Below, piece by piece: positions 10,722 through 44,628 of a stretch of DNA of 64,000 nt (position 1 is the stretch's first letter; every line of letters begins with the position of its first letter). A program made the translations under genes and the position numbers. The notes below the pieces were generated by a model. That model was not told the origin of the DNA, made no database searches, and worked only from the letters and a program-made list of their open reading frames with translations. The DNA comes from an uncultured Pirellulales bacterium (GTDB lineage Bacteria > Planctomycetota > Phycisphaerae > Sedimentisphaerales > Anaerobacaceae), in assembly GCA_964346195.1 (NCBI GenBank), contig CAYFUB010000097.1, positions 4,688-68,687 of the forward strand. Direction: 5' to 3'.

Positions 10722-11663
10722 TCAAACAATGCGATTGCGTCTTTCCGGCCGTCTACGCATGGATTGGCGGTAACGCATGGGCGTGACGCCCATTCTCTTC
10801 TTGAACTGTCGGTGGAAGTAGTAGACATTGGCATAGCCGACGCGCTGAGCGATCTCATAGCAGCGCAGCGACGTGAAGCGCAGCAGTCTCTGGGCGGCCT
10901 CGAAGCGGAGGTCCTGCTGATAGGCCAGGGGGGAGACGCGGAAGGACTTTTTGAACGCCCGGAACAAGTGACCTTTCGAGCAGTGAGACACCGAGGCCAA
11001 ATCCTCAGCGGCGATGGCCTCGGCATAATGCTCATCGATATATTGCCGGACCAGCAGGATGGGGTTGTCCTGAGCGAGGGCGGCACCCGGAATTTCCTCC
11101 GTGTAGCAATGTGCAACGATCGTATCGAACACATCGGCCAGAGCGCGGCGGGCGTAAAAGTCCGACATGGAGAAAGGGCTTTGCAGGAAATCCATAATCT
11201 GGATCATGATGATCACGAGTTCCTGCATGGTGTCTTTGGGCAGGTGCGGCTCGCGGTGCAGCCGGCCGGCGACCCCCGTATAAATGTTCAAAATTTCCCC
11301 GAACGGGAGAGTCAGCACTTTTCCCGCCTGCGTCGCGAAGGAGAAGGTGATTTCCGAGTACACGCTGGAGTGGCGCAGGCTCACGAAATCGTGCGGCTGG
11401 CCGGGCGAGATGATGACCAGGGTTCCCGGCTCCGCGCGATACTTCCGGCCGCCTTTGAGGTAGAAGCCCGAGGATTGGGTATAGAGCACGATGTGGTACA
11501 GGTCGTGCGCATGCTCGTGAAACGTCCGCAGATCGCCGACGGCGCGGTCCTGGTCGATGGCCGCATGCACGAAGGTCGGAAAATAAGCCTCCCGATCGTG
11601 CAGAATCATCAGCGCCTGGGGCATTTCCTCACTGCGCCGACGGGTCTGTAAATATTGCCGCAT
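10722..11663 (-). CDS. AraC/XylS-family transcriptional regulator (cupin-like sensor domain plus C-terminal HTH)
   Basis: C-terminal double HTH: LASVSHCSKGHLFRAFKKSFRVSPLAYQQDLRFEAAQRLLRFTSLRCYEIAQRVGYANVYYFHRQFKKRMGVTP. Lies 10 nt upstream of the PmoA-like gene. The start could instead be Met14 (11624). Confidence 0.85.
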   Translation of the reverse strand: MRQYLQTRRRSEEMPQALMILHDREAYFPTFVHAAIDQDRAVGDLRTFHEHAHDLYHIVLYTQSSGFYLKGGRKYRAEPGTLVIISPGQPHDFVSLRHSSVYSEITFSFATQAGKVLTLPFGEILNIYTGVAGRLHREPHLPKDTMQELVIIMIQIMDFLQSPFSMSDFYARRALADVFDTIVAHCYTEEIPGAALAQDNPILLVRQYIDEHYAEAIAAEDLASVSHCSKGHLFRAFKKSFRVSPLAYQQDLRFEAAQRLLRFTSLRCYEIAQRVGYANVYYFHRQFKKRMGVTPMRYRQSMRRRPERRNRIV

Positions 11664-11774
11664 ATATCACGAAAGTGCAATAAATTGCGATTTTCATACA
11701 TTTTTCCGGCCCGTATGAGGTATGATAATAGAACATGGATCAGTAGGTGCAATCAAATAATGACGAGGTGACGC

Positions 11775-12638
11775 ATGAAAACGAAAGCGTTTACCCTGAT
11801 CGAGCTGCTGGTGGTGATCGCGATCATCGCGCTGCTGATGGCCGTCATCATGCCGGCGTTGAGCCTGGCCAAGAGAAAGGCCGGGACCACTGTGTGCATG
11901 AGCAACACCAAGAACCTCTCCCTCGGCTGGTACATGTACATGGGCGAGAATGACGGGCGCATCATGAGCTCGGACGATGAAGCCGATGGGAAGGAACGGA
12001 GCGGAAAATTCGTCGGCTGGTGCGGCGTGCCTCGTAACGAGGCCGGCACGGCGCTCAGTATCAGCCAGGCGGACCCTGCCGTGACGGATGAGGATGAAAT
12101 CCGAGGGATCAAGGAAGGGGTCCTGTTTCCCTATCTCAAGGAGCCGCAGACCTACCATTGCCCTGCCGACAATCAGCGCAAGAGTATTTACGACAGGACC
12201 AACGTCTTTGTCACCTACTCGATTCCCAAGTGTCTGTGCGGGTATCCCAACGAGACCCACGCGAACTATAACCTGCAGATCAGACGGTTCAATGAGATCA
12301 CGGCGCCGTCCACACGGTACGTGTTTGTGGAGACGGCGGAGACGCGGAACTGGAATTCCGGCCATCACTTCGTCATGGCGGCGCCGGAGTATACAAATCT
12401 GGCCACGTGGGGCTGGTGGGGACCCATGGCGATCAACCACGGCGACAGCAGCGTCCTGGGCTTCTGCGACGGCCACTCGGAGATACGCCGCTGGCGTGAC
12501 AAATACACCATCAACCGCGTGGACAAGCTGCTCACGACGGGGGGAACACTGTACAACCGGGACTACCCGCCGGTGGAACAGACACAGGACATCGACTACA
12601 TGGCCAAGGGTTGGGCCTACCGCCATAAAATACAATAG
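11775..12638 (+). CDS. prepilin-type N-terminal cleavage/methylation domain protein of the H-X9-DG (DUF1559) class
   Basis: Class III signal: MKTKA/FTLIELLVVIAIIALLMAV. C-terminal HGDSSVLGFCDGH matches H-X9-DG exactly. Confidence 0.9.
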   Translation: MKTKAFTLIELLVVIAIIALLMAVIMPALSLAKRKAGTTVCMSNTKNLSLGWYMYMGENDGRIMSSDDEADGKERSGKFVGWCGVPRNEAGTALSISQADPAVTDEDEIRGIKEGVLFPYLKEPQTYHCPADNQRKSIYDRTNVFVTYSIPKCLCGYPNETHANYNLQIRRFNEITAPSTRYVFVETAETRNWNSGHHFVMAAPEYTNLATWGWWGPMAINHGDSSVLGFCDGHSEIRRWRDKYTINRVDKLLTTGGTLYNRDYPPVEQTQDIDYMAKGWAYRHKIQ

Positions 12639-36549: not shown

Positions 36550-37158
36550 CCATAGGGGTGGATCTGAAAAGGGTCCGAGACCCCCGACGCGCTGGACCGC
36601 GTTTGGGAACGGTCCTGACGCGGAATCATGGGTCTGGGAGACCGCCAGCCCAATGCCACTCGTACCGGCGGTTACCGCCGTCATTTCCCTGTAACCGCCG
36701 GCCGGACCACCGCCACTTACAGGGTGAAATGCAGCAGTGGGGGCGGGTTTGAGACTCGCCCCCGCGGCGCTCAGATGGAGATTCGGTACAGAGGAGTCAG
36801 AGCCATGGATTCCGAGGAGATGAGAGCGGAGTTGGAGAGATTTGTGAATGCAGGTTTGCAGGAAGGGTGGCATGGATGGCCGCTCAAGAGTGCGATTGGG
36901 GCCCCGAAACCTCGGAGGCGATCCCTCGCTTCGGGCAGGAGTTCCTCGACGCGACTGAGTGTATTGGGGGCTCCGAGCCCCACCGGCCGCGAAATAGTGC
37001 GGTTGGACACCCCGATCATCTTGACTGGTTGGCAAAAGCTCTCTGCGGTACTATCATCGCTGAGTTGAGAGTTGAAGAAGTCGGGCGCGCGCCCGCTATG
37101 ATCGTACGGGCGGGTCTGAAACCTATCCGTACAACCTGATATCAGAAGGAGATGGAAG

Positions 37159-37743
37159 ATGCGAAGAAAGGTGATTGCGATTGGTGTCGTGGCCTGCGTG
37201 TTGGCCTTGGTCGTCGGGAGCCTGTCCATTGCCCAGCCGCCCGCGCGTGGCGACCGGGGTGCCGCGGGAGGAGACAGAGGCGGCAGGTTCGACCCGGCGC
37301 AGATGCGCCAAATGATGGCTCAGCGGCTGAAGGAACAGCTTGGCGTCGATGACCAGGCCTGGAAGGTGATGGAGCCGCGGCTCATGAAAGTCATGGAGCT
37401 CAACCGCCGGGTGTCGGGCATGGGAGGACGTGGCGGTACGTTCTTCGGCGGTTTCCGGGGACAAAGGCCGGGGGCTGAAGGCCGCGGGCCGGCCGACAGA
37501 CCCGGATTCGCGGGACAGCAGCCCAATAGAGAGCTGACGCCGGTGGAGAAGGCCACGGAACAACTGCGGACCACTCTTGAGAATCAGTCGGCGTCGCCAG
37601 AAGAGATCAAGAAGCAACTGACGGCGGTCCGTGAGGCGCGAGAGAAGGCGAAACAGGAGTTGGCGGCGGCCCAGCAGGAACTCCGGCAGATCCTCACGTT
37701 GCGGCAGGAAGCCCAGTTGGTGCTCATGGGACAACTGAATTGA
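37159..37743 (+). CDS. small secreted coiled-coil protein, Spy/CpxP-like (one LTXXQ motif)
   Basis: aaggag 7 nt upstream of the ATG. Signal/anchor MRRKVIAIGVVACVLALVVGSLSIA. Gly/Arg-rich linkers. ILTLRQEAQL contains LTXXQ. Confidence 0.55.
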   Translation: MRRKVIAIGVVACVLALVVGSLSIAQPPARGDRGAAGGDRGGRFDPAQMRQMMAQRLKEQLGVDDQAWKVMEPRLMKVMELNRRVSGMGGRGGTFFGGFRGQRPGAEGRGPADRPGFAGQQPNRELTPVEKATEQLRTTLENQSASPEEIKKQLTAVREAREKAKQELAAAQQELRQILTLRQEAQLVLMGQLN

Positions 37744-37752
37744 TGATGGATA

Positions 37753-37818
37753 ATGGATGATTGATGATGCAAGGAGAAGTCTGGAGCCTTCTTTAATCAT
37801 CCATCATCAATCATCCAT
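37753..37818 (+). promoter_or_regulatory. AT-rich 17-bp perfect stem-loop immediately upstream of gspE
   Basis: ATGGATGATTGATGATG (37753-37769) pairs perfectly with CATCATCAATCATCCAT (37802-37818) around a 32-nt loop. It ends 11 nt before ATG 37830. No U-tract follows. Confidence 0.5.
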
Positions 37819-37829
37819 AATCAATACTT

Positions 37830-39548
37830 ATGGACCCACTTGCAGACAGAATGCTCGACCAGGGCCTGATCGACGAATCGGCGGCTCGGCGAATCAGCGA
37901 GTCGCTCGCGCAAGGCGAGCCTCCTGCCCGGGCCTTTGCGACCTGCGGTGTGGCCGATGAGCCGTTGCTGCGGTTCCTGGCCCGCGAGCTGGGGCTTACC
38001 TTCGTCGAGCTCGAAGGCCGGACGTTCTCTCGCGAGTTTCTCGCCCGATTTCCTGCGCGCATCCTTTTAGACAAACACATCGTGCCTGTCGAGAGGGACA
38101 ACGGCCGTCTGCTGGCGGTCACGAGCGATCCGTTCGACACCTCGGCCGTCGATGAGTTGTGTCTGGCCACGGGCCGGGATTTCCAGATCGGGCTGGCCCC
38201 CCTGGCGGAAATCGACCGGTGCATCAAACGGCATCTCGGCGTGGGGGCCGACACGGTGCAATCCATGATCTCGCAGGCCGGCGAGAACGGGCTGCAGGTC
38301 ATCGATACGGAGGCGGACGAGGACATGGACCTGACGCAGGCCGCCGAGGGTGCGTCCATCGTCCGCTTCGTCAACCAGATCCTCACCGAAGCCATCGAGC
38401 TGCGGGCGACCGACGTTCACATCGAGCCGTTCGAGGAAACCCTGCGCGTCCGCTATCGCATCGACGGCGTTCTTCAGGAGGCTTCGGTGGCCGCGGAGGT
38501 CAAGCAGTTCCAGGCGGCCATCGTCTCGCGCTTGAAGATTCTGAGCAAGCTGGACATCGCCGAAAAGCGCGTGCCGCAGGACGGGCGCATCAAGATTCTC
38601 ATTGCCGGGCGCGAGATCGACGTCCGCGTCTCGGTGATCCCAATGCTCTACGGCGAAGCGGTCGTGCTGCGCCTGCTGGACCGGTCATCGGTGCTGCTGG
38701 GGCTGGATAAGCTGGGCATGTCCGAGCGGGACCTGGGAATCATGCGGACCATCCTGGAACGGCCGCACGGAATCATTTTGGTGACGGGCCCGACCGGAAG
38801 CGGCAAGACCACGACGCTCTATGCGGCGCTGTCGCGCATCAACGACGTTCAGCGCAAGATCATCACCATCGAAGACCCCATCGAGTACCAGCTTCACGGG
38901 GTCAATCAGATCCAGGTTTCGCGCAAGGCCGGACTGACCTTCGCCAGCGGACTGCGCTCGATCCTGCGCCACGACCCCGACGTCGTCCTCGTCGGCGAGA
39001 TTCGCGACGCCGAGACGGCGGAGATCGCCATTCAGGCCTCGCTGACGGGCCACCTGGTCTTCTCGACCCTGCACACCAACGATGCGCCAAGCGCCCTGAC
39101 CCGCCTGGTGGATATGGGCATTGAGCCGTACCTGGTGGCCTCGTCGCTGGAGGCGGTCCTGGCCCAGCGGCTGGTGCGCCTGATCTGTCCGGACTGCAGA
39201 GAGCAGCTTGCGACAAACGAGGTGATGCCGTTGCGCCGGCGGTTCGGTGACCGGTTGCCCGGGTCGCTCTACCAGGGACGGGGCTGCCGCCGGTGCCAGG
39301 GGACGGGCTATCACGGCCGGGTCGGGATCTTTGAGCTGATGGTGGTCACGGATGAGGTTCGGTCGCTCATCCTGGAGAGCGCCTCGGCCCCCGAGCTGCG
39401 CAAAATCGCCGCGCGACAGGGCATGAAGAACCTCCGCGACGATGGATTCAGACATCTGTGCGACGGCCGCACGACGGTGGAAGAGATCCTCAGGGTCACC
39501 AAGGATGATGCCTTCGAACTGACCGGTCTCGGGGATTTGAGCCGGTAA
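37830..39548 (+). CDS. gspE: type II secretion / type IV pilus assembly ATPase (GspE/PilB family)
   Basis: N-terminal T2SSE_N-like domain. Walker A GPTGSGKTTT. ITIEDPIE. Walker B DVVLVGEIRD. His box GHLVFSTLHTND. Tetracysteine CPDC...CRRC. Confidence 0.9.
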   Translation: MDPLADRMLDQGLIDESAARRISESLAQGEPPARAFATCGVADEPLLRFLARELGLTFVELEGRTFSREFLARFPARILLDKHIVPVERDNGRLLAVTSDPFDTSAVDELCLATGRDFQIGLAPLAEIDRCIKRHLGVGADTVQSMISQAGENGLQVIDTEADEDMDLTQAAEGASIVRFVNQILTEAIELRATDVHIEPFEETLRVRYRIDGVLQEASVAAEVKQFQAAIVSRLKILSKLDIAEKRVPQDGRIKILIAGREIDVRVSVIPMLYGEAVVLRLLDRSSVLLGLDKLGMSERDLGIMRTILERPHGIILVTGPTGSGKTTTLYAALSRINDVQRKIITIEDPIEYQLHGVNQIQVSRKAGLTFASGLRSILRHDPDVVLVGEIRDAETAEIAIQASLTGHLVFSTLHTNDAPSALTRLVDMGIEPYLVASSLEAVLAQRLVRLICPDCREQLATNEVMPLRRRFGDRLPGSLYQGRGCRRCQGTGYHGRVGIFELMVVTDEVRSLILESASAPELRKIAARQGMKNLRDDGFRHLCDGRTTVEEILRVTKDDAFELTGLGDLSR

Positions 39549-39574
39549 GGAAAAACTTGAAGTACAGACTTACA

Positions 39575-40786
39575 ATGGCCACATTCGTCTATAAGGCGCT
39601 GGACACACAGGGGCGACCGATTGCCGATACGCTCGTGGCACCCGACCGGGCCTCGGCAATCGAGCAGCTCTGCGGCAGAAACCTCAGCCCGGTCTTGGTG
39701 GAAAGACAGGATGAACGCCGGGCCGAGGGCCTGCTCGTTCGCGTCGGTCGCGTCTCGAAGCGCGAGGTCGAGGCGTTCACCCGGCAACTGTCCAATCTGC
39801 TGGCGGCGGGCGTCCCGCTGAGCCGGGCGCTGAGCATTCTCAGCCGTGAAGCCTCAAAACCGGCGGCCGCGAGACTCTGGGCGACAGTGCACGACCAGGT
39901 TGCGGGCGGCATGTCCCTGGCCGAAGCGCTCGCCCACCACCCCCGGGCCTTCCCGCCTGTCTACGTGGCAATGGTGCGGGCCGGCGAGACCGGGGGCTTT
40001 CTCGATTTGGTGCTCGAACAGATTGCCACGTTCCGGTCACGCGAGCAGGACCTCAAGGGCAAGGTCACATCCGCACTGATCTACCCGATCATCCTGTCTG
40101 TGCTGGCTGCGGCGATTCTCGTGTTCCTGCTGACGTATTTCATTCCGCGTTTCTCGCAGATGTTTGTGGAATTCGGCGGCTCGTTGCCCGAGTTGACGAA
40201 AGCCATCGTCGCTGTCAGCCGGCTCCTGCTGCGGTACTGGGTCGTTCTGGTGCTCGTGATGGCGTTGGCCGTCTTCGGTATTCGACGCGCGCTGGCCAGC
40301 GCGGACGGACGCCGGGTCCTGGAGCGCGTGACGCTCCGGCTTCCGCTGTTCGGCGGCGCCGTGGCAAGGTTTGCGCTGGTACGGTTCTGTCGCATGCTGG
40401 GTACGCTGGTCGGGGCCGGCGTGCCGTTGATCGCCGCCTTGCGGGTGGCCAAGGAAGCCATCGGAAATCAGGTCCTGGCGGATACCGTGGACGGGGCCAT
40501 TGAGGACGTCCAGCACGGGACCTCTCTGGGCCGCAGCCTGGAGAGCTGTCGCGCGTTGTTCCCGGCTTCCGTGATCGAGATGATCTGCGTGGCGGAGGAG
40601 AGCAGCCGGCTGGACAAGGAACTGACCCGCCTGGCGACAGCCTACGAGCAGGAACTGGATCGTCATTTGAAAATGATCGTGGCGCTGGCGGAACCGGCCT
40701 TGCTGTTTGTCATGGCGGTTCTGGTCGGCACCGTCGTGATCGGAATGCTCCTGCCGATCTTCAATCTGCAGGAGCTGATTCGGTGA
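39575..40786 (+). CDS. gspF: type II secretion inner-membrane platform protein (GspF/PilC family)
   Basis: Start trimmed to ATG 39575 (MATFVYKALDTQGRPI, a typical GspF opening). Duplicated T2SSF domains. VAEESSRLDKEL. Confidence 0.9.
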   Translation: MATFVYKALDTQGRPIADTLVAPDRASAIEQLCGRNLSPVLVERQDERRAEGLLVRVGRVSKREVEAFTRQLSNLLAAGVPLSRALSILSREASKPAAARLWATVHDQVAGGMSLAEALAHHPRAFPPVYVAMVRAGETGGFLDLVLEQIATFRSREQDLKGKVTSALIYPIILSVLAAAILVFLLTYFIPRFSQMFVEFGGSLPELTKAIVAVSRLLLRYWVVLVLVMALAVFGIRRALASADGRRVLERVTLRLPLFGGAVARFALVRFCRMLGTLVGAGVPLIAALRVAKEAIGNQVLADTVDGAIEDVQHGTSLGRSLESCRALFPASVIEMICVAEESSRLDKELTRLATAYEQELDRHLKMIVALAEPALLFVMAVLVGTVVIGMLLPIFNLQELIR

Positions 40787-40854
40787 GAAATGTGAACGGC
40801 GAACGATCGCCTGTTGCATCTGATGTTCGGGGTATTTTTGAGTCGGGATTGAAC

Positions 40855-41319
40855 ATGAAATCGTGGATTGAAAACAAACGGCAGAGATCGAATCGGCAAG
40901 CAGTCGTCACTGATCGGGGCTTTACGCTGATCGAGCTGCTGCTGGTGCTGGTGATCCTGGCGACGCTGGCGGCCATTGTGACGCCGAAGTTCACGAAGCG
41001 GTCGGAGCAGGCCCGCATCACGGCGGCCCGCACACAGATCTCGCAGCTCGAGGTCGCGTTAGATGCCTTTGAGATCGACGTCGGCCGCTATCCTACGACC
41101 ACCGAGGGTCTGCGGGCTTTGGTCGACAAGCCTGCCTCCGACTCGGAGGGATGGCAGCAGGCGTACCTCAAGAGGGACGTGCCCCGGGACCCGTGGGGTA
41201 ACGAGTATGTGTACCGGTTCCCCGGCCAGTATAATCTGGATGGCTACGACCTGCACTCCAACGGCCCGGACCGGAAATTGGGCGGCGGCGACGACATCAC
41301 CAACTGGTCGGAAGAATAG
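40855..41319 (+). CDS. gspG: major pseudopilin (GspG family)
   Basis: Start trimmed to ATG 40855. Leader MKSWIENKRQRSNRQAVVTDRG/FTLIELLLVLVILATLAAIV. TQISQLEVALDAFEIDVGRYPTTTEGL. DPWGNEYVY. Confidence 0.9.
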   Translation: MKSWIENKRQRSNRQAVVTDRGFTLIELLLVLVILATLAAIVTPKFTKRSEQARITAARTQISQLEVALDAFEIDVGRYPTTTEGLRALVDKPASDSEGWQQAYLKRDVPRDPWGNEYVYRFPGQYNLDGYDLHSNGPDRKLGGGDDITNWSEE

Positions 41320-41324
41320 ACGCG

Positions 41325-41969
41325 ATGCTTCATTCCAAACATCTTTGGCCCTTGCGGATTGCGGATTGCGGATGGCGGATTCGCATTGCGGGTCGCCTTC
41401 CGTTTGCCGCGTCGCCACGGCAGACTCCGATCAGAAGCCGCAATCATCAATCATCAATCATCAATTATCAATCCGAAGGGGGCTTTACGCTCCTTGAATT
41501 GATACTGGTGATGGTCATTCTCTCGACCGTGCTGGCCATGGCGGCGCCGTCGCTGAGCGGGTTCTTCGCCTCACGCCGGAGTGATGATACGGCGGCCCAG
41601 ATTCTGGCCCTGACACAGTTGGCCCGTTCTCAGGCCGTCAGTGAGGGGATTGTCTACCGGCTCAATTTCGATACGCAGGAACGGACGTACTGGCTGACCG
41701 CGCAGCAGGCCGGGACTTTTGAAAAGCTCGAAACCGGATTCGGGCGGGTCTTCACCCTGCCGAAGGACATCACGATGGAACTGGAGGGGGTGGAGCAAGA
41801 GGACAGAGACGTGTTCCTTGCTTTTACGCCCCACGGCACGGCCACCGCCGGGACCATCAGGCTTGTTGGCCGTAGCGGCCGGGCCCTGGAGGTGACTTGC
41901 CCGACCGTTACGGAATCATTCTCCATCGTTGAGTGTGAACGGACATACAACAGATATGCGTCAAGATAA
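41325..41969 (+). CDS. minor pseudopilin, GspH-like by position, with 53-aa leader
   Basis: The only canonical in-frame start is ATG 41325, 5 nt after the gspG stop. Mature N-terminus: GG/FTLLELILVMVILSTVLAMAAPSLSGFFASRR. Confidence 0.7.
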   Translation: MLHSKHLWPLRIADCGWRIRIAGRLPFAASPRQTPIRSRNHQSSIINYQSEGGFTLLELILVMVILSTVLAMAAPSLSGFFASRRSDDTAAQILALTQLARSQAVSEGIVYRLNFDTQERTYWLTAQQAGTFEKLETGFGRVFTLPKDITMELEGVEQEDRDVFLAFTPHGTATAGTIRLVGRSGRALEVTCPTVTESFSIVECERTYNRYASR

Positions 41970-42426
41970 GAGAGACAGTTTGAAGTTTGAGGTTTCAAGT
42001 GTGAAGTCTGAGGTCTCGATTCCTCATACTTCCTACCTCAAACTGCCTACTGTAAACTCCCGCCTCGGCGGGTTCACCTTTGTCGAGCTGCTCGCGACGG
42101 TGGTGCTGCTCGCCATCATTATGCCCGTGGCCATGCGGAGCATCGGTCTGTGCACGCGCGTGGCGGGACTGTCGCGCAGGCAGCTCGAAGCGGCCTCGCT
42201 GGCCAGGACCAAGCTCACCGAGCTGACCGTCACACACGACTGGGAGAGCGGAACTCAGCGGGGAGACTTCGGGACGGACTGGCCCGGGTACGAATGGACC
42301 GCTGCGGTCACCAACTGGACGGATTCCGCCGTTCGCCAGCTTGAACTGACCGTCTCCTGGCGCTCCATGGGCAAGCAGCGCGGGCTCACCCTGAGCACGC
42401 TGGTGTATCCTCGGGAGGAGAGTTGA
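41956..42426 (+). CDS. minor pseudopilin, GspI-like by position and size
   Basis: RLGG/FTFVELLATVVLLAIIMPVAM. Small globular domain ending LELTVSWRSMGKQRGLTLSTLV. The start is uncertain: ATG 41956, GTG 42001, or the track's 41929. Confidence 0.65.
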   Translation: MRQDKRDSLKFEVSSVKSEVSIPHTSYLKLPTVNSRLGGFTFVELLATVVLLAIIMPVAMRSIGLCTRVAGLSRRQLEAASLARTKLTELTVTHDWESGTQRGDFGTDWPGYEWTAAVTNWTDSAVRQLELTVSWRSMGKQRGLTLSTLVYPREES

Positions 42427-42463
42427 CGTGGCGATTGATTTGAGATATCCCTGGAGACGGCGG

Positions 42464-43246
42464 ATGGCAGGTTGTGGATGGCGGATTCGCATCGCCGGTC
42501 GTCTTCCATCGGCCGTGTGGCCACCCCGGACTCCGGCCCGCAATCATCAATCATCAATTATCGATCATCAATCCGAAGGGGCTTTTACGCTGCTCGAACT
42601 GCTGGTAGCCATGGTGCTGATGGTAGTGACGGCATCGTGCTTGTATACGGCTTTGTACACGGGCTTTCGGGCGCATCGCAGCGCCCTGGCGGCGACCGAG
42701 CCCACGGCGCTGGCGATCAACGCGATCGAGCTGCTCAAGCAGGACATCAGCGGGGTCCTGCCGCCGGGAGGCGTCCTGGCCGGCGCCTTTACGGGTACGG
42801 ATTCGGCGGGGATCAGGGGGGCGGATGCAGATAGTCTCGGGTTCTGCACCACCCACGTATTTGCGGATGACGAGCAGTTGGCCGGCGGATTGGGCAAGAT
42901 CGAATTGCTCCTGGAAGAGGACGCCGAGAGCGATGACGGAACCTATCGGCTTATCCGGCGTGTGACGACGAACCTATTGACCTCGAAGGAGGCCGAGGCG
43001 GACGAGCAGATTCTGTGCCGCAGCGTCGAGTCGCTGAATCTCCGCTATTTCGACGGCTCAACCTGGGTCGATGACTGGGATTCGACGGCCGACGCCAACA
43101 GCCTCCCTCTGGCCGTGGAGATCGATATTCAGGTCGTGTACAAGACCAAGAGCAGCACCAGGGAACCTCAAAAGCGGCGGCTCATCCAGAGCTTCGCCAT
43201 ACCGTGCGAGACCCCCGCACAGAACGAGAGCGAGTCGGCAACATGA
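42464..43246 (+). CDS. minor pseudopilin, GspJ-like by position, with long leader
   Basis: SEGA/FTLLELLVAMVLMVVTASCLY. The start is ATG 42464 or GTG 42428. The stop overlaps the gspK start (ATGA). Confidence 0.65.
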   Translation: MAGCGWRIRIAGRLPSAVWPPRTPARNHQSSIIDHQSEGAFTLLELLVAMVLMVVTASCLYTALYTGFRAHRSALAATEPTALAINAIELLKQDISGVLPPGGVLAGAFTGTDSAGIRGADADSLGFCTTHVFADDEQLAGGLGKIELLLEEDAESDDGTYRLIRRVTTNLLTSKEAEADEQILCRSVESLNLRYFDGSTWVDDWDSTADANSLPLAVEIDIQVVYKTKSSTREPQKRRLIQSFAIPCETPAQNESESAT

Positions 43247-44628
43247 GACACGCGGCTGGACAATCAGGAAAGTATCATCGAGCCGGCCCGTCGAGGCGCC
43301 GGTGGCCGGGGGGTACCGTCCTGATCGTCACGATCTGGGTGGTCCTGGTTCTGGCAGGGCTGGCTCTTGTGTTTGCCGGCTCGGTGCGCGTCTCGGCGAC
43401 GGTGTCGGCTAATCATGTCGCTTCCCTGCAAGCTGAGTGTATCGCGACCGGCGCGATCGAGTACATCACGGCAAAGCTGAATGCCGCCGCACAGACGGAT
43501 GCCTCATCATCTCAGACGAGCGATTCTTACGAGGCCTTGCAGGTGGGACAGGGCTACTTTTGGGCCCTGCGTTCGAACCTGGAGAGTGATCGGGAGTTCG
43601 AATATGGTCTTACGGACGAAGCGGGCAAGATCAATCTGAATTCCGCCTCGCAGGAGACGCTGCTGAAACTGCCGGGCATGACGGCCGAACTGGCGGCTTC
43701 GATCATCGACTGGCGGGACGAAGACGGCGACGTCACGGCCGGCGGGGCCGAAGACGAGTACTACCTCTTGCAGCCGCAAGCCTATTACTGCAAGAACGCG
43801 CCGTTGGAGACGGTCGATGAGGTCCTCCTGATCAAAGGAGCCTCAGAGGACTTGCTGTACGGGGAAGATACCAACCTCAACGGCGTCCTCGACGAGCATG
43901 AAAACGATGGGGATCAGAGCGACCCGCCCGACAATCGCGATGGGAGGCTCGACAGGGGATTCTATCATTATGTCACGGTCTACAGCACGGAAGCCAACAC
44001 CGACGCCGAAGGCAACTCGCGCATCAATATCAACAGCGGCGGCACTCGCGGCGACCTGCTGAAAGCATTGCAGGAGGCGACCACGGCGGACCGCGCCCTG
44101 GAGATCATGAACCAGGTTCCCACCAACCCCTCCTATGCCAACATCCTGGACTTCTATTTCCGGGCGGGCCTGACGTTCGAGGAGTTCTCTTCGATCGTGG
44201 ATCGAATCACGACGAGCGATGCCGAGACGCTTCCCGGACTGGTGAACGTGAATACCGCCTCGAAGGAGGTCCTCATGTGTCTGCCGGAATTAGAGGAGAG
44301 CGACGTGGGGGCTTTGCTGTCGTATCGCAGCTCGAACAACCAGCTCGACTCCATCGCCTGGGTGACCAAGGTCCTGGATCGGCCCCAAGCGGTTGCCATC
44401 GGCAGCTACATCACGGTCCGCTCGTTCCAGTACTCTGCCGACATAATCAGCCTGTCCGGCAACGGGCGGGCCTACAAGCGGTATAAGGCGGTCCTCGATA
44501 CGCGCGAGGCGCCGCGGGTTGTCTACTGGAAGACACTGACCCACTTCGGTTGGCCTCTGGACCCGGATATCGTGACCGCGCTGAGGAAAGGGCGTCCTCT
44601 TACCAGCGTCGCGGTGAACATGAATTGA
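43243..44628 (+). CDS. gspK: minor pseudopilin GspK family
   Basis: GTVLIVTIWVVLVLAGLALVFA. TDEAGKINLNSASQETLLKLPGMTAELAASIIDWRDEDGD (helix-hairpin-helix region typical of GspK). VNVNTASKEVLMCLP. Confidence 0.8.
   Translation: MRHAAGQSGKYHRAGPSRRRWPGGTVLIVTIWVVLVLAGLALVFAGSVRVSATVSANHVASLQAECIATGAIEYITAKLNAAAQTDASSSQTSDSYEALQVGQGYFWALRSNLESDREFEYGLTDEAGKINLNSASQETLLKLPGMTAELAASIIDWRDEDGDVTAGGAEDEYYLLQPQAYYCKNAPLETVDEVLLIKGASEDLLYGEDTNLNGVLDEHENDGDQSDPPDNRDGRLDRGFYHYVTVYSTEANTDAEGNSRININSGGTRGDLLKALQEATTADRALEIMNQVPTNPSYANILDFYFRAGLTFEEFSSIVDRITTSDAETLPGLVNVNTASKEVLMCLPELEESDVGALLSYRSSNNQLDSIAWVTKVLDRPQAVAIGSYITVRSFQYSADIISLSGNGRAYKRYKAVLDTREAPRVVYWKTLTHFGWPLDPDIVTALRKGRPLTSVAVNMN

What the first reader, a model, noticed from the sequence alone, without database searches (positions are those of the whole stretch)
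41325..42583. Unusually long, mutually homologous leader peptides on two minor pseudopilins
The GspH-like and GspJ-like genes have no canonical start near the G/FTLLE cleavage site. The nearest in-frame starts give leaders of 53 aa (ATG 41325) and 39-52 aa (ATG 42464 or GTG 42428), versus 22 aa for GspG. The two leaders are homologous: (I/M)A(D/G)CGWRIRIAGRLP...RNHQSSII(N/D)(Y/H)QSEG(G/A)FTLLEL. In the 36-nt block encoding CGWRIRIAGRLP (41367-41402 vs 42473-42508) the two copies differ at five positions, all third-codon and all synonymous (tgc/tgt, att/atc, gcg/gcc, cgc/cgt, ccg/cca). If differences fell randomly across codon positions, all five hitting third positions has a chance of about (1/3)^5, roughly 0.4 percent. 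This argues the leader is translated and under purifying selection. It would be a conserved pro-region of unknown function, such as targeting, chaperoning or regulated processing.
Basis: partly seen in the sequence, partly recalled or inferred. Interest (0 to 1): 0.65.

Follow-up and report, generated by a model that had tools for sequence, protein, structure and literature searches.

The report
Heptamer-repeat insertions lengthen pseudopilin leaders
The two look-alike long leaders are copies of a 7-base-repeat hairpin element inserted in frame into the cut-off leader part of type II secretion pseudopilin genes; they are very probably translated, but their amino-acid sequence drifts freely, so they are tolerated repeat DNA and not a conserved pro-region.

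Summary
The sequence facts hold. gspH (ATG 41325) and gspJ (GTG 42428) have open, in-frame leaders of 53 and 52 codons, about 77% identical in DNA. gspG has 22 codons, and another prepilin at 11787 has 5.

Translation is well supported. In 63/63 gspI and 55/55 gspJ upstream regions from related metagenome loci, insertions of 0 to about 230 nt always keep the frame with the ancestral start.

A conserved pro-peptide is not supported. Between orthologues the J leader has omega 0.87, against 0.03-0.15 for the mature parts. Most orthologues have ordinary leaders of 10-18 aa. The "five silent changes" block is a post-hoc pick: scan-corrected P is 0.01-0.03, and whole-leader differences fall 9/12/14 over codon positions.

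The shared sequence is a composite heptamer-repeat element: (GCGGATT)n, a spacer, then (AATCATC)n. The AATCATC array also forms a non-coding hairpin in front of gspE. (GCGGATT)n arrays occur in more than 120 genomes of many phyla, mostly away from pilin genes.

What remains unexplained is why the heptamer arms stay 89% identical between lineages while the loops randomise.

The parts
37738..37825 (+). Non-coding heptamer-repeat hairpin that fills the gap between the upstream gene and gspE. Arms are (GATGATT)n 37738-37769 and (AATCATC)n 37795-37825. The upstream gene's stop codon is TGA 37741-37743 and the gspE start is ATG 37830.
   Evidence: TRF. Inverted repeat I6 is 92% complementary. Fold is -32.3 kcal/mol, z = -3.2. 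The hairpin is absent from the orthologous site in L001. The 5' arm carries in-frame TGA codons, so it cannot be coding.
40855..41319 (+). gspG, the major pseudopilin, with an ordinary 22-aa leader (MKSWIENKRQRSNRQAVVTDRG|FTLIE). Included as a comparator.
   Evidence: T2SSG, 1.9e-33. In relatives the same start, M(K/R)(A/S)W, precedes in-frame heptamer hairpins.
41325..41483 (+). gspH leader-coding region, 53 codons, from ATG 41325 to the G codon 41481-41483.
   Evidence: The orthologous leader in L205 starts at a GTG 2 nt after the gspG stop and is in frame.
41352..41391 (+). 5' heptamer array of the H element, (TTGCGGA) x5.9. It encodes LRIADCGWRIR.
   Evidence: TRF; period-7 scan.
41392..41440 (+). 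GC-rich spacer of the H element. It is shared only with the J elements of the window and L001 and with the H element of L205.
   Evidence: BLAST of the spacer against all 205 loci; four-way alignment.
41441..41473 (+). 3' heptamer array of the H element, (CAATCAT) x4.7. It encodes NHQSSIIN and ends 8 nt before the G codon.
41484..41969 (+). Mature GspH-like pseudopilin (161 aa) plus its stop codon.
   Evidence: Pfam GspH and N_methyl. Omega vs L001 is 0.10.
41956..42072 (+). gspI leader-coding region, 39 codons. The ancestral ATG overlaps the end of gspH. An in-frame heptamer hairpin has arms (AGTTTGA)n 41975-42016 and its complement 42022-42053.
   Evidence: I5. Fold z = -4.2. L001 and L002 have the same start without the insert. 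The array reads TCA where the consensus unit would give an in-frame TGA.
42413..42420 (+). Shine-Dalgarno-like GGGAGGAG. Its GGAGG core lies 9 nt before GTG 42428.
   Evidence: The columns G.AGG.G...TGAC.TG are invariant in ten J loci.
42428..42583 (+). gspJ leader-coding region, 52 codons, from GTG 42428 to the A codon 42581-42583.
42455..42492 (+). Degenerate 5' heptamer array of the J element (GGCGGAT-like). It is orthologous to the perfect (TGCGGAT) x4.7 array of L001.
   Evidence: Alignment A1; TRF on L001.
42541..42573 (+). 3' heptamer array of the J element, (CAATCAT) x4.7. It ends 8 nt before the A codon.
42584..43246 (+). Mature GspJ-like pseudopilin plus its stop codon.
   Evidence: Pfam T2SSJ, 3.2e-10.

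Best explanation
The two leaders are old paralogous copies of one composite repeat element. It has a 5' array of about 5 GCGGATT-type heptamers, a ~50-nt GC-rich spacer and a 3' array of about 4.7 AATCATC heptamers. It sits in the leader-coding DNA of gspH and gspJ.

Elements of this kind are paired, near-complementary arrays of about 4.6 heptamers, that is, hairpins. In this Planctomycetota lineage they occur patchily at the 5' ends of gspG, H, I, J and K, and in this window also before gspE.

Shown:
- They are present in some close relatives and absent in others.
- They always preserve the reading frame from the ancestral start codon.
- They avoid stop codons.
- Their 3' arm ends 7-17 nt (in one case 22 nt) before the Gly/Ala(-1) codon.
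- Their encoded peptide evolves at about the neutral rate.

Inferred:
- Translation starts at the ancestral start (ATG 41325, GTG 42428) and runs through the element. This gives 50-odd-residue leaders that the prepilin peptidase removes at G/A|F.
- The leader is a safe harbour for repeat DNA because it is discarded. Only the frame, the absence of stops and the few residues next to the cleavage site are under selection.
- The H and J copies look alike because they share descent from one DNA element (duplication or gene conversion between neighbouring pseudopilin genes), not because a peptide function is conserved.
- In the window the H and J copies have lost arm complementarity. They are probably inert as RNA structures.
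For: Repeat nature:
- Period-7 arrays occur at exactly four sites in the 64-kb window, all in the T2SS operon.
- The AATCATC 17-mer gives 13 hits against 0.1 expected, including a non-coding hairpin before gspE.
- (GCGGATT)3 occurs in at least 120 genome loci from many phyla. Only 4 of 130 arrays lie next to a prepilin motif.

Presence/absence:
- L001 (GspH 91% identical) has normal E-upstream, H and I regions but carries the J element.
- L002 has normal I and J leaders but elements at G and H.
- L021 J is an empty site against the filled sites in L017, L015 and L014. The difference is 78 nt, or 26 codons.
- 81 of 120 GspH homologues have leaders of 11-18 aa.

Translation:
- The distance from the gspH stop to the gspI G codon is 1 mod 3 in 63/63 distinct regions (19-253 nt).
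- The gspI-stop to gspJ distance is 1 mod 3 in 51/55. The other 4 have a shifted in-frame start.
- Indels inside elements are 3, 6, 21 and 78 nt.
- The I arrays read TCA where the unit consensus would give TGA.
- A conserved SD precedes GTG 42428.

No peptide constraint:
- Omega for the J leader is 0.87, against 0.03-0.15 for mature parts.
- Leader DNA divergence (0.20-0.28) is about equal to four-fold-site divergence (0.27).
- Arm variants change the peptide, for example DCGLRIA to DFGFRIS.

Decayed hairpin:
- Window H arms are 71% complementary, z = -1.2 to -2.1. The J region has z = +0.9.
- Intact relatives are 88-96% complementary with z = -5 to -11.6.

Precedents:
- In-frame palindromic insertions are known as RPEs (PMC10969869).
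- An Acidobacteriota Ser/Thr kinase carries NPQSAIRNPQ in frame in its activation loop.
Against: - The 12-codon block CGWRIRIAGRLP has 5 silent and 0 replacement differences between H and J. This keeps a scan-corrected P of 0.01-0.03.
- In intact elements the arms are 89% identical between loci whose loops are only 39% identical. The arms therefore do not evolve neutrally, so "junk" may be too strong for the element as a whole.
- All four array sites of the window lie in the 12-kb T2SS operon. The 3' arm sits at a fixed distance from the cleavage codon in five different genes. This could reflect function and not only tolerance.
- No protein-level evidence for the start codons exists.
Confidence: 0.62

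Rival explanations
1. The heptamer hairpins are functional cis-acting RNA (or DNA) elements embedded in the first codons of T2SS genes. For example, they could set mRNA stability, processing or translation rate of individual cistrons. The long leader would then be a by-product of dual coding. The window's H and J copies would be diverged members.
For: - Arms are 89% identical against 39% for loops across seven J loci.
- Predicted hairpins are strong, with z = -5 to -11.6.
- The position is fixed 7-17 nt (once 22 nt) before the cleavage codon in G, H, I and J. Arrays at the position expected for the gspK 5' end were assigned from coordinates only.
- A hairpin of the same family sits in non-coding DNA 4 nt before the gspE start.
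- All four sites in 64 kb lie in this one operon.
- Heptamer repeats just upstream of start codons have been proposed as translational regulators in Beggiatoaceae (PMC4679880).
Against: - Most orthologous operons lack the elements. They are found in 16/63 G, 4/63 H, 3/64 I and 10/54 J regions at the threshold used.
- Many pairs carry one systematic mismatch per heptamer, such as GATTTCG/AATCCGC and GATTGCG/AATCCGA.
- Almost no compensatory pairs are seen: 2/25 and 4/25, with a positive covariation term.
- The window H and J copies and the L001 J copy have lost complementarity yet persist.
- No Rfam match.
Confidence: 0.22
2. One reading: the long leader is a conserved, selected pro-peptide (targeting, chaperoning or regulated processing) shared by GspH and GspJ.
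For: - The frame is strictly kept.
- The block CGWRIRIAGRLP is identical in H and J, with five silent differences; corrected P is 0.01-0.03.
Against: - Omega is 0.87 between orthologous J leaders and 0.55 between the H and J leaders.
- The same block changes at about 4-6 of 12 residues in orthologues (my reading of the alignment).
- Leaders are ordinary in most orthologues, and in the closest relative for H and I.
- Other genes of the operon carry unrelated heptamer peptides at the same place.
- The same DNA is non-coding before gspE.
Confidence: 0.06
3. The heptamer arrays are contingency loci. Gain or loss of one 7-nt unit shifts the frame and switches individual pseudopilins on or off (phase variation).
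For: - The unit length is not a multiple of 3.
- The arrays lie between the start codon and the mature part.
- Some arrays are perfect, 100% over 4.4-4.7 copies.
Against: - Every one of the distinct I and J upstream regions examined is in frame.
- Length differences between relatives are multiples of 3, for example 21 nt (three units) in L014.
- Copy number is narrow at 3.3-5.9, below that of typical slippage-prone tracts.
- Near-identical loci (L017/L018, L068/L069) differ by substitutions and not by unit number.
Confidence: 0.04
4. The element is untranslated 5' leader RNA, and translation starts at a non-canonical codon just upstream of G|F.
For: - In other phyla and before gspE, arrays end a few nucleotides before start codons.
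- 25 of 120 GspH homologues are called from a Met at +1.
Against: - Only 8 nt separate the array from the G/A codon, and they hold no ATG, GTG, TTG, CTG or ATH in frame.
- If the element were untranslated, its frame and freedom from stops would not be conserved, yet they are in 63/63 and 55/55 cases.
- The conserved G/A(-1) residue and the basic residues before it imply that this part is translated.
Confidence: 0.03

Closest known systems
Heptanucleotide long simple-sequence repeats in bacteria: STRR of Calothrix/Nostoc, GGGAATC arrays of Xanthomonas, GGGGA(T/C)T of Nostoc, TAACTGA of marine Beggiatoaceae
   Same: - Tandem 7-nt units, most often about four per array.
- Sometimes arranged as inverted pairs able to form stem-loops.
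- Often close to gene starts.
- The same unit is shared by distant taxa.
- Function unknown.
Sources: PMC4692102; PMC4679880, which also reports Mrazek 2007's finding that heptanucleotides are the most abundant class of long SSR.
   Different: - The unit sequences here are GCGGATT/AATCCGC, AATCATC and AGTTTGA.
- The regular two-arm hairpin is the normal form.
- They lie inside translated leader-coding DNA, with frame and stop-codon avoidance maintained.
- The described families are reported as intergenic, and TAACTGA cannot be translated.
- I found no paper that mentions these units.
Rickettsia palindromic elements (RPE) and other intragenic MITEs
   Same: Short palindromic repeat elements inserted in frame into unrelated protein-coding genes and translated as extra peptide segments at tolerant positions. 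Filled and empty sites occur among relatives (PMC10969869).
   Different: - RPEs are ~150-bp families with a conserved sequence throughout.
- Here only the heptamer arms are shared and the loops are unique.
- No terminal inverted repeats, target-site duplications or transposase link were seen.
- The arms look like in-situ tandem arrays.
- The insertion target here is a cleaved signal-type leader.
Long leaders of type IVb pilins
   Same: Prepilin-type (class III) signal peptides that are longer than the usual fewer than 10 residues and are removed by the prepilin peptidase. Type IVb leaders are about 15-30 aa (PMC3927602).
   Different: - The leaders here are 39-53 aa, and longer in some relatives.
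- They are on T2SS pseudopilins.
- They are variable in presence.
- They are made of repeat-derived sequence and are not a family-typical leader.
REP/REPIN, ERIC and Correia-type intergenic palindromes
   Same: Dispersed hairpin-forming repeats within operons that can affect mRNA stability or processing (established knowledge; review PMC10969869).
   Different: - No conserved full-length consensus and no GTAG/CGTC tag were noted.
- The arms are built from tandem heptamers.
- A RAYT or transposase association was not examined.

Membership tests
Prepilin-type (class III) signal peptide on T2SS pseudopilins | Gly/Ala at -1, Phe/Met at +1, Glu at +5, followed by a hydrophobic helix. Pfam N_methyl plus a GspH/GspJ domain. 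| tested here: met
   GG|FTLLELILVMVIL and GA|FTLLELLVAMVL. N_methyl scores 26.1 bits for H (cutoff 21.2) and 20.6 bits for J (just under). GspH 1.8e-07, T2SSJ 3.2e-10.
Prepilin-type (class III) signal peptide on T2SS pseudopilins | Short, basic leader: under 10 aa in type IVa pilins, about 15-30 aa in type IVb. | tested here: not met
   53 and 52 codons from the frame-conserved starts. For comparison: 22 for GspG, 5 for the prepilin at 11787 and 11-18 for 81/120 GspH homologues. Length classes are from PMC3927602.
Prepilin-type (class III) signal peptide on T2SS pseudopilins | Cleavage and N-methylation by a cognate prepilin peptidase. | not testable with these tools
   A simple G-x-G-D-x-K motif scan found no peptidase in the window. 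Biochemistry is needed.
Conserved pro-region / propeptide | Present in orthologues. | tested here: not met
   L001 lacks it in H, and L002 lacks it in J. Only 4/63 H and 10/54 J upstream regions show a heptamer signal.
Conserved pro-region / propeptide | Purifying selection on the amino-acid sequence (omega well below 1). | tested here: not met
   Omega is 0.87 for the J leader (window vs L001), with differences 11/10/10. Mature parts give 0.03-0.15. The H-vs-J block signal is marginal.
Heptanucleotide long simple-sequence repeats (STRR-like) | Tandem 7-nt units, at least 3 copies, more than chance. | tested here: met
   TRF finds period 7 with 3.9-5.9 copies at four sites. The 17-mer gives 13 hits against 0.1 expected. 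No such region appears in five shuffles. Period 7 is the commonest TRF period in 85 loci.
Heptanucleotide long simple-sequence repeats (STRR-like) | Intergenic location. | tested here: not met
   Met for the gspE-upstream copy. The H, I and J copies lie inside frame-conserved ORFs.
Heptanucleotide long simple-sequence repeats (STRR-like) | Many arrays of the same unit per genome. | not testable with these tools
   Only 64 kb of this genome is available.
RPE-like in-frame palindromic insertions | Palindromic element. | tested here: inconclusive
   Clear for the I and E-upstream copies and for relatives (88-96% complementary). The H and J copies of the window are only about 70% complementary.
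RPE-like in-frame palindromic insertions | In-frame insertion in ORFs, with filled and empty sites among relatives. | tested here: met
   L021 empty against L017 filled, 78 nt; frame; kinase activation-loop example.
RPE-like in-frame palindromic insertions | A conserved full-length family consensus that implies transposition. | tested here: not met
   Loops are 39% identical against 89% for arms. The spacer of the H/J element is found only in pseudopilin genes of three relatives.
SSR contingency locus (phase variation) | Unit-number polymorphism that shifts the reading frame. | tested here: not met
   All distinct I and J regions are in frame. Indels are multiples of 3.
Rfam RNA families | Match to a curated covariance model. 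| tested here: not met
   No hit at E <= 1 in 37000-44000.

The most novel reading that the evidence does not exclude
The paired heptamer arrays ((GCGGATT)n - loop - (AATCCGC)n and variants) may be an undescribed class of sequence-specific cis element. It would be shared by many bacterial phyla and maintained by selection or by a dedicated mechanism. In this planctomycete lineage it would have been recruited into the translated leaders of all T2SS pseudopilins, as a dual-coded RNA hairpin plus disposable peptide, to tune their expression. The silent-only divergence of the CGWRIRIAGRLP block would then be a trace of real constraint.
Probability: 0.15. Interest if true: 0.75.

Novelty: new variant of a known kind. 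Interest (0 to 1): 0.45.

Why it matters
For secretion and pilus biology, prepilin leaders could be three to five times longer than textbook values and still, presumably, be processed. This follows only if the inferred processing is real; it was not tested here. Such leaders should not be read as functional pro-domains without comparing orthologues.

For genome annotation, this explains a class of odd low-complexity N-termini, such as RIADCGLRIAD, NPQSAIRNPQS and NHQSSIINHQS. It also explains inconsistent start calls in Planctomycetota and other soil and sediment phyla.

For genome evolution, it is a clean case of repeat DNA colonising the one part of a tightly packed operon where extra codons are harmless. 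Frame and stop-codon avoidance are the only visible constraints. It also exposes an open question: why one heptamer is kept across phyla.

Tried and rejected
- Rfam scan of 37-44 kb at E <= 1: nothing.
- Phase variation: rejected on frame and indel data.
- A start codon between the array and G|F: none present.
- BLAST of the private ~50-nt spacer against all 205 loci: only window H and J and L001 J (L205 H was seen by alignment). It is therefore not itself a dispersed repeat.
- Recent H<->J gene conversion in the window: the quartet analysis gave 6/3/4 informative sites, so there is no clear signal. All four leaders are about equidistant at 71-80%.
- Covariation in the I and J hairpins: too few compensatory pairs to argue for or against structure.
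- Whether (AATCCGC)n arms sit just before gene starts in other phyla: only a modest excess. A long-ORF start lies within 50 nt in 48% of cases against 34% at random positions, using a crude ORF criterion. I do not rely on this.
- Literature searches for these heptamers, their peptide translations, and planctomycete heptanucleotide repeats: no hits.
- Motif scan for a prepilin peptidase in the window: none.
- My first dN/dS run had two frame errors, in the G leader and the L001 J leader. These were corrected.
Full report
**1. What is at the coordinates.**
The window from 37.8 to 50.2 kb holds a Planctomycetota-type type II secretion operon:
- gspE 37830-39548
- gspF 39557-40786
- gspG 40855-41319
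- a GspH-like gene to 41969
- a GspI-like gene to 42426
- a GspJ-like gene to 43246
- gspK, L/M-like genes and a secretin

Pfam confirms G, H, J and K. The cleavage motifs are GG|FTLLE (G codon 41481) and GA|FTLLE (A codon 42581).

No ATG/GTG/TTG lies within 22 codons upstream of either motif. The open frames run back to ATG 41325 (53 codons) and GTG 42428 (52 codons; ATG 42464 gives 40). GspG has 22 codons. A further prepilin gene at 11787 has five (MKTKA|FTLIE).

The H and J leaders align colinearly and in the same frame, with indels of 3 and 6 nt. They are about 77% identical (BLAST E = 5e-27).

**2. Is the silent-site pattern more than chance?**
Over the whole leader the 35 differences fall 9/12/14 on codon positions 1/2/3 (chi-square P = 0.58). 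Eight codons differ silently and 19 differ by replacement.

The block was chosen after looking. By simulation, a run of at least five third-position differences somewhere in such an alignment has P = 0.03. A run of identical residues holding at least five silent differences has P = 0.01. A weak signal therefore remains, far from the stated 0.4%.

In the orthologous leaders the same twelve codons are not conserved. CGWRIRIAGRLP reads CGLRVRSAGRLA in the L001 J leader and CGLRIRTAARFL in the L205 H leader.

**3. The shared sequence is built from heptamer repeats.**
Tandem Repeats Finder reports period-7 arrays at four places in the 64 kb, all in this operon:
- before gspE: GATGATG 37742-37769 and ATCATCC 37796-37822
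- in the H leader: TTGCGGA x5.9 at 41352-41391 and CAATCAT x4.7 at 41441-41473
- in the I leader: AGTTTGA x5 at 41977-42016, with its complement at 42022-42050
- in the J leader: CAATCAT x4.7 at 42541-42573

A period-7 scan finds nothing comparable elsewhere in the window and nothing in shuffles. AATCATCAATCATCAAT with up to 3 mismatches hits 13 times against 0.1 expected.

The gspE copy is a clean hairpin that fills the whole intergenic gap. The arms are 92% complementary and z = -3.2. Its 5' arm contains in-frame TGA codons, so it is non-coding. The I copy is also a good hairpin (z = -4.2).

The H and J copies are not. Their 5' arm (GCGGATT type) and 3' arm (AATCATC type) are only about 70% complementary. 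The folds give z = -2.1 and +0.9 and -1.2. Rfam has no match.

**4. Relatives.**
GspH has hundreds of homologues at 70-90% identity in sediment, wetland and sludge metagenomes. One is labelled Planctomycetota.
- 81 of the best 120 have leaders of 11-18 aa ending in G|FTLLE.
- 25 are called from a Met at +1.
- The few leaders longer than 30 aa are mostly repeat-derived, for example RTEDRGQRTEDR...PSSVVRHPSS.

The closest locus is L001 (GspH 91% identical). It has no hairpin before gspE. Its H leader (MSKALKRQRDGCGG|F) and I leader (MRRDKANNVHGRHEG|F) are normal. It does carry the J element, in frame.

L002 has normal I and J leaders but has elements in G and H. L205 has the H element, starting at a GTG two bases after the gspG stop, with a 3' arm of AATCAGC units.

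In 80 further loci, period 7 is the commonest tandem period. Most arrays have about 4-5 copies (range 3.3-5.9), and most come in near-complementary pairs 13-21 nt apart. The 3' array ends 7-17 nt (once 22 nt) before the Gly/Ala(-1) codon of gspG, H, I or J. Further arrays lie at the position expected for the gspK 5' end; I assigned these from coordinates alone.

At the threshold used, 16/63 G, 4/63 H, 3/64 I and 10/54 J upstream regions carry such arrays. Alignment A1 shows L021 J as an empty site against filled sites in its close relatives L017, L015 and L014. The difference is 78 nt, or 26 codons. L014 lacks exactly three units, 21 nt.

**5. Are the long leaders translated?**
The gspI start overlaps the end of gspH, and the gspJ start lies four bases after the gspI stop. 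These anchors do not depend on the downstream frame.

The distance from the gspH stop to the gspI Gly codon is 1 mod 3 in all 63 distinct upstream regions. These span about twenty different lengths from 19 to 253 nt. The gspI-stop to gspJ distance is 1 mod 3 in 51 of 55 regions, and the other four have a start shifted so that the frame is restored.

If the insertions were untranslated, each length change would keep the frame one time in three. For gspG, all the element-bearing leaders listed that I read through continue in frame from the conserved M(K/R)(A/S)W start.

Arrays whose consensus unit would give an in-frame stop (AGTTTGA, GAAGTGT) read TCA at exactly that codon. A GGAGG nine bases before GTG 42428 is invariant in ten loci. 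I conclude that translation starts at the ancestral start codons and reads through the elements. Cleavage at G/A|F is inferred from the family and was not tested.

**6. Is the peptide under selection?**
Nei-Gojobori estimates, window against L001:

| Region | omega |
|---|---|
| mature GspG | 0.03 |
| mature GspH | 0.10 |
| mature GspI | 0.15 |
| first 40 mature codons of GspJ | 0.03 |
| J leader | 0.87 (differences 11/10/10 by codon position) |

The H and J leaders within the window give 0.55. Leader DNA divergence (0.20-0.28) matches four-fold-site divergence (0.27).

The four related leaders (window H, window J, L001 J, L205 H) are roughly equidistant at 71-80%. All are multiples of three in length. 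The H/J duplication is therefore old. Only openness and frame have been kept.

**7. What the element is.**
These come from Acidobacteriota, Verrucomicrobiota, Planctomycetota, Gemmatimonadota, Chloroflexota, Bacteroidota, Armatimonadota, proteobacteria and others.
- Only 4 of 130 arrays lie next to a prepilin motif.
- 126 of 143 arrays have 3-4.9 copies.
- A third have an (AATCCGC)-type partner within 130 nt.
- One sits in frame in the activation loop of an Acidobacteriota Ser/Thr kinase. The Pkinase match is a single stretch at 1.1e-46.

The literature knows the class but not these members. Heptanucleotides are the most abundant long simple-sequence repeats in many bacteria. GGGAATC arrays of about four units, some as inverted pairs, occur in Xanthomonas. 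TAACTGA arrays lie just upstream of start codons in Beggiatoaceae (PMC4692102; PMC4679880). Translated in-frame palindromic insertions are known as Rickettsia palindromic elements (PMC10969869). Searches for these units or their peptide read-outs found nothing.

**8. What does not fit a purely neutral picture.**
Across seven intact J elements the arms are 89% identical, while the loops are 39% and the 5' flanks 55% identical. There are almost no compensatory pairs. Many pairs keep one systematic mismatch per unit.

Arms change in concert. AATCCGC became AATCAGC in L205, AATCATC in the window and CATCATC in L001.

Something therefore keeps arrays homogeneous and close to a preferred unit. This could be selection on a nucleic-acid element, or a repeat-homogenising process. 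For that reason I give the functional-RNA rival 0.22 and keep a novel reading at 0.15.

**9. Verdict.**
Their likeness comes from a shared heptamer-repeat DNA element sitting in a disposable part of the protein, not from a conserved pro-peptide. This is a new variant of known kinds: heptameric SSRs, and in-frame palindromic insertions. Interest is moderate for the finding as stated. It is higher for the unexplained cross-phylum conservation of the heptamer arms.

Noticed in passing
Arrays are mostly 3-4.9 copies. A third have an (AATCCGC)-type partner 10-112 nt downstream. Other heptamer families (TTTTGGA, ATTCGTA, GAGATTT, CCTCCTG) are often adjacent.
   Followed up: partly
L123 523-3633 (+), array at about 1243: In an Acidobacteriota Ser/Thr kinase, an (AATCCGC) array is translated in frame as NPQSAIRNPQ between DFG and GTPQYMSPE in the activation loop. 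Pfam Pkinase still matches as one stretch (1.1e-46).
   Followed up: yes
L017 3717-3851, L015, L014, L068, L010, L013, L064 (alignment A3): The heptamer arms of orthologous J elements are 89% identical between loci, while the loops are 39% identical. Many arm pairs keep one systematic mismatch per unit (GATTTCG/AATCCGC, GATTGCG/AATCCGA).
   Followed up: partly
L205 1095-1215; also GspI leaders of L016, L059, L065 and GspH homologue P0014: A different, non-heptamer palindromic repeat is also inserted in frame in pseudopilin leaders. Examples are ...GGTGCGTACCACGC... in L205 and peptides ending GRLRAHGCAGVLGG|F. The leader therefore accepts several kinds of repeat DNA.
   Followed up: no
L002 5541-5571 and 5993-6020: An (ATCCGCC) array before the gspG cleavage codon and a (GATGGCG) array at the start of gspH form an inverted pair that brackets the whole mature gspG coding region, about 420 nt apart.
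   Followed up: no
window 37770-37795: The loop of the gspE-upstream hairpin contains an SD-like AAGGAGAAG about 50 nt from the gspE ATG. The orthologous L001 site has a 17-nt gap with no hairpin.
   Followed up: no
GspH homologues P0020, P0024, P0026 and others (25 of 120): Many orthologues have Met in place of Phe at +1 (G/A|MTLLE). Gene callers start the protein at that Met, giving 161-aa products without a leader. These are probably start-call errors.
   Followed up: no
window 11637-11816: A separate prepilin-like gene (MKTKA|FTLIELLVV) has an ordinary 5-aa leader and no heptamer array.
   Followed up: yes
L017 3810-3841; window 42470-42480: Some array variants contain the 7-mer core of the E. 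coli DnaA box: ATCCACA in the (AATCCAC) units, and TGTGGAT in the window J 5' arm. This is probably coincidence.
   Followed up: no
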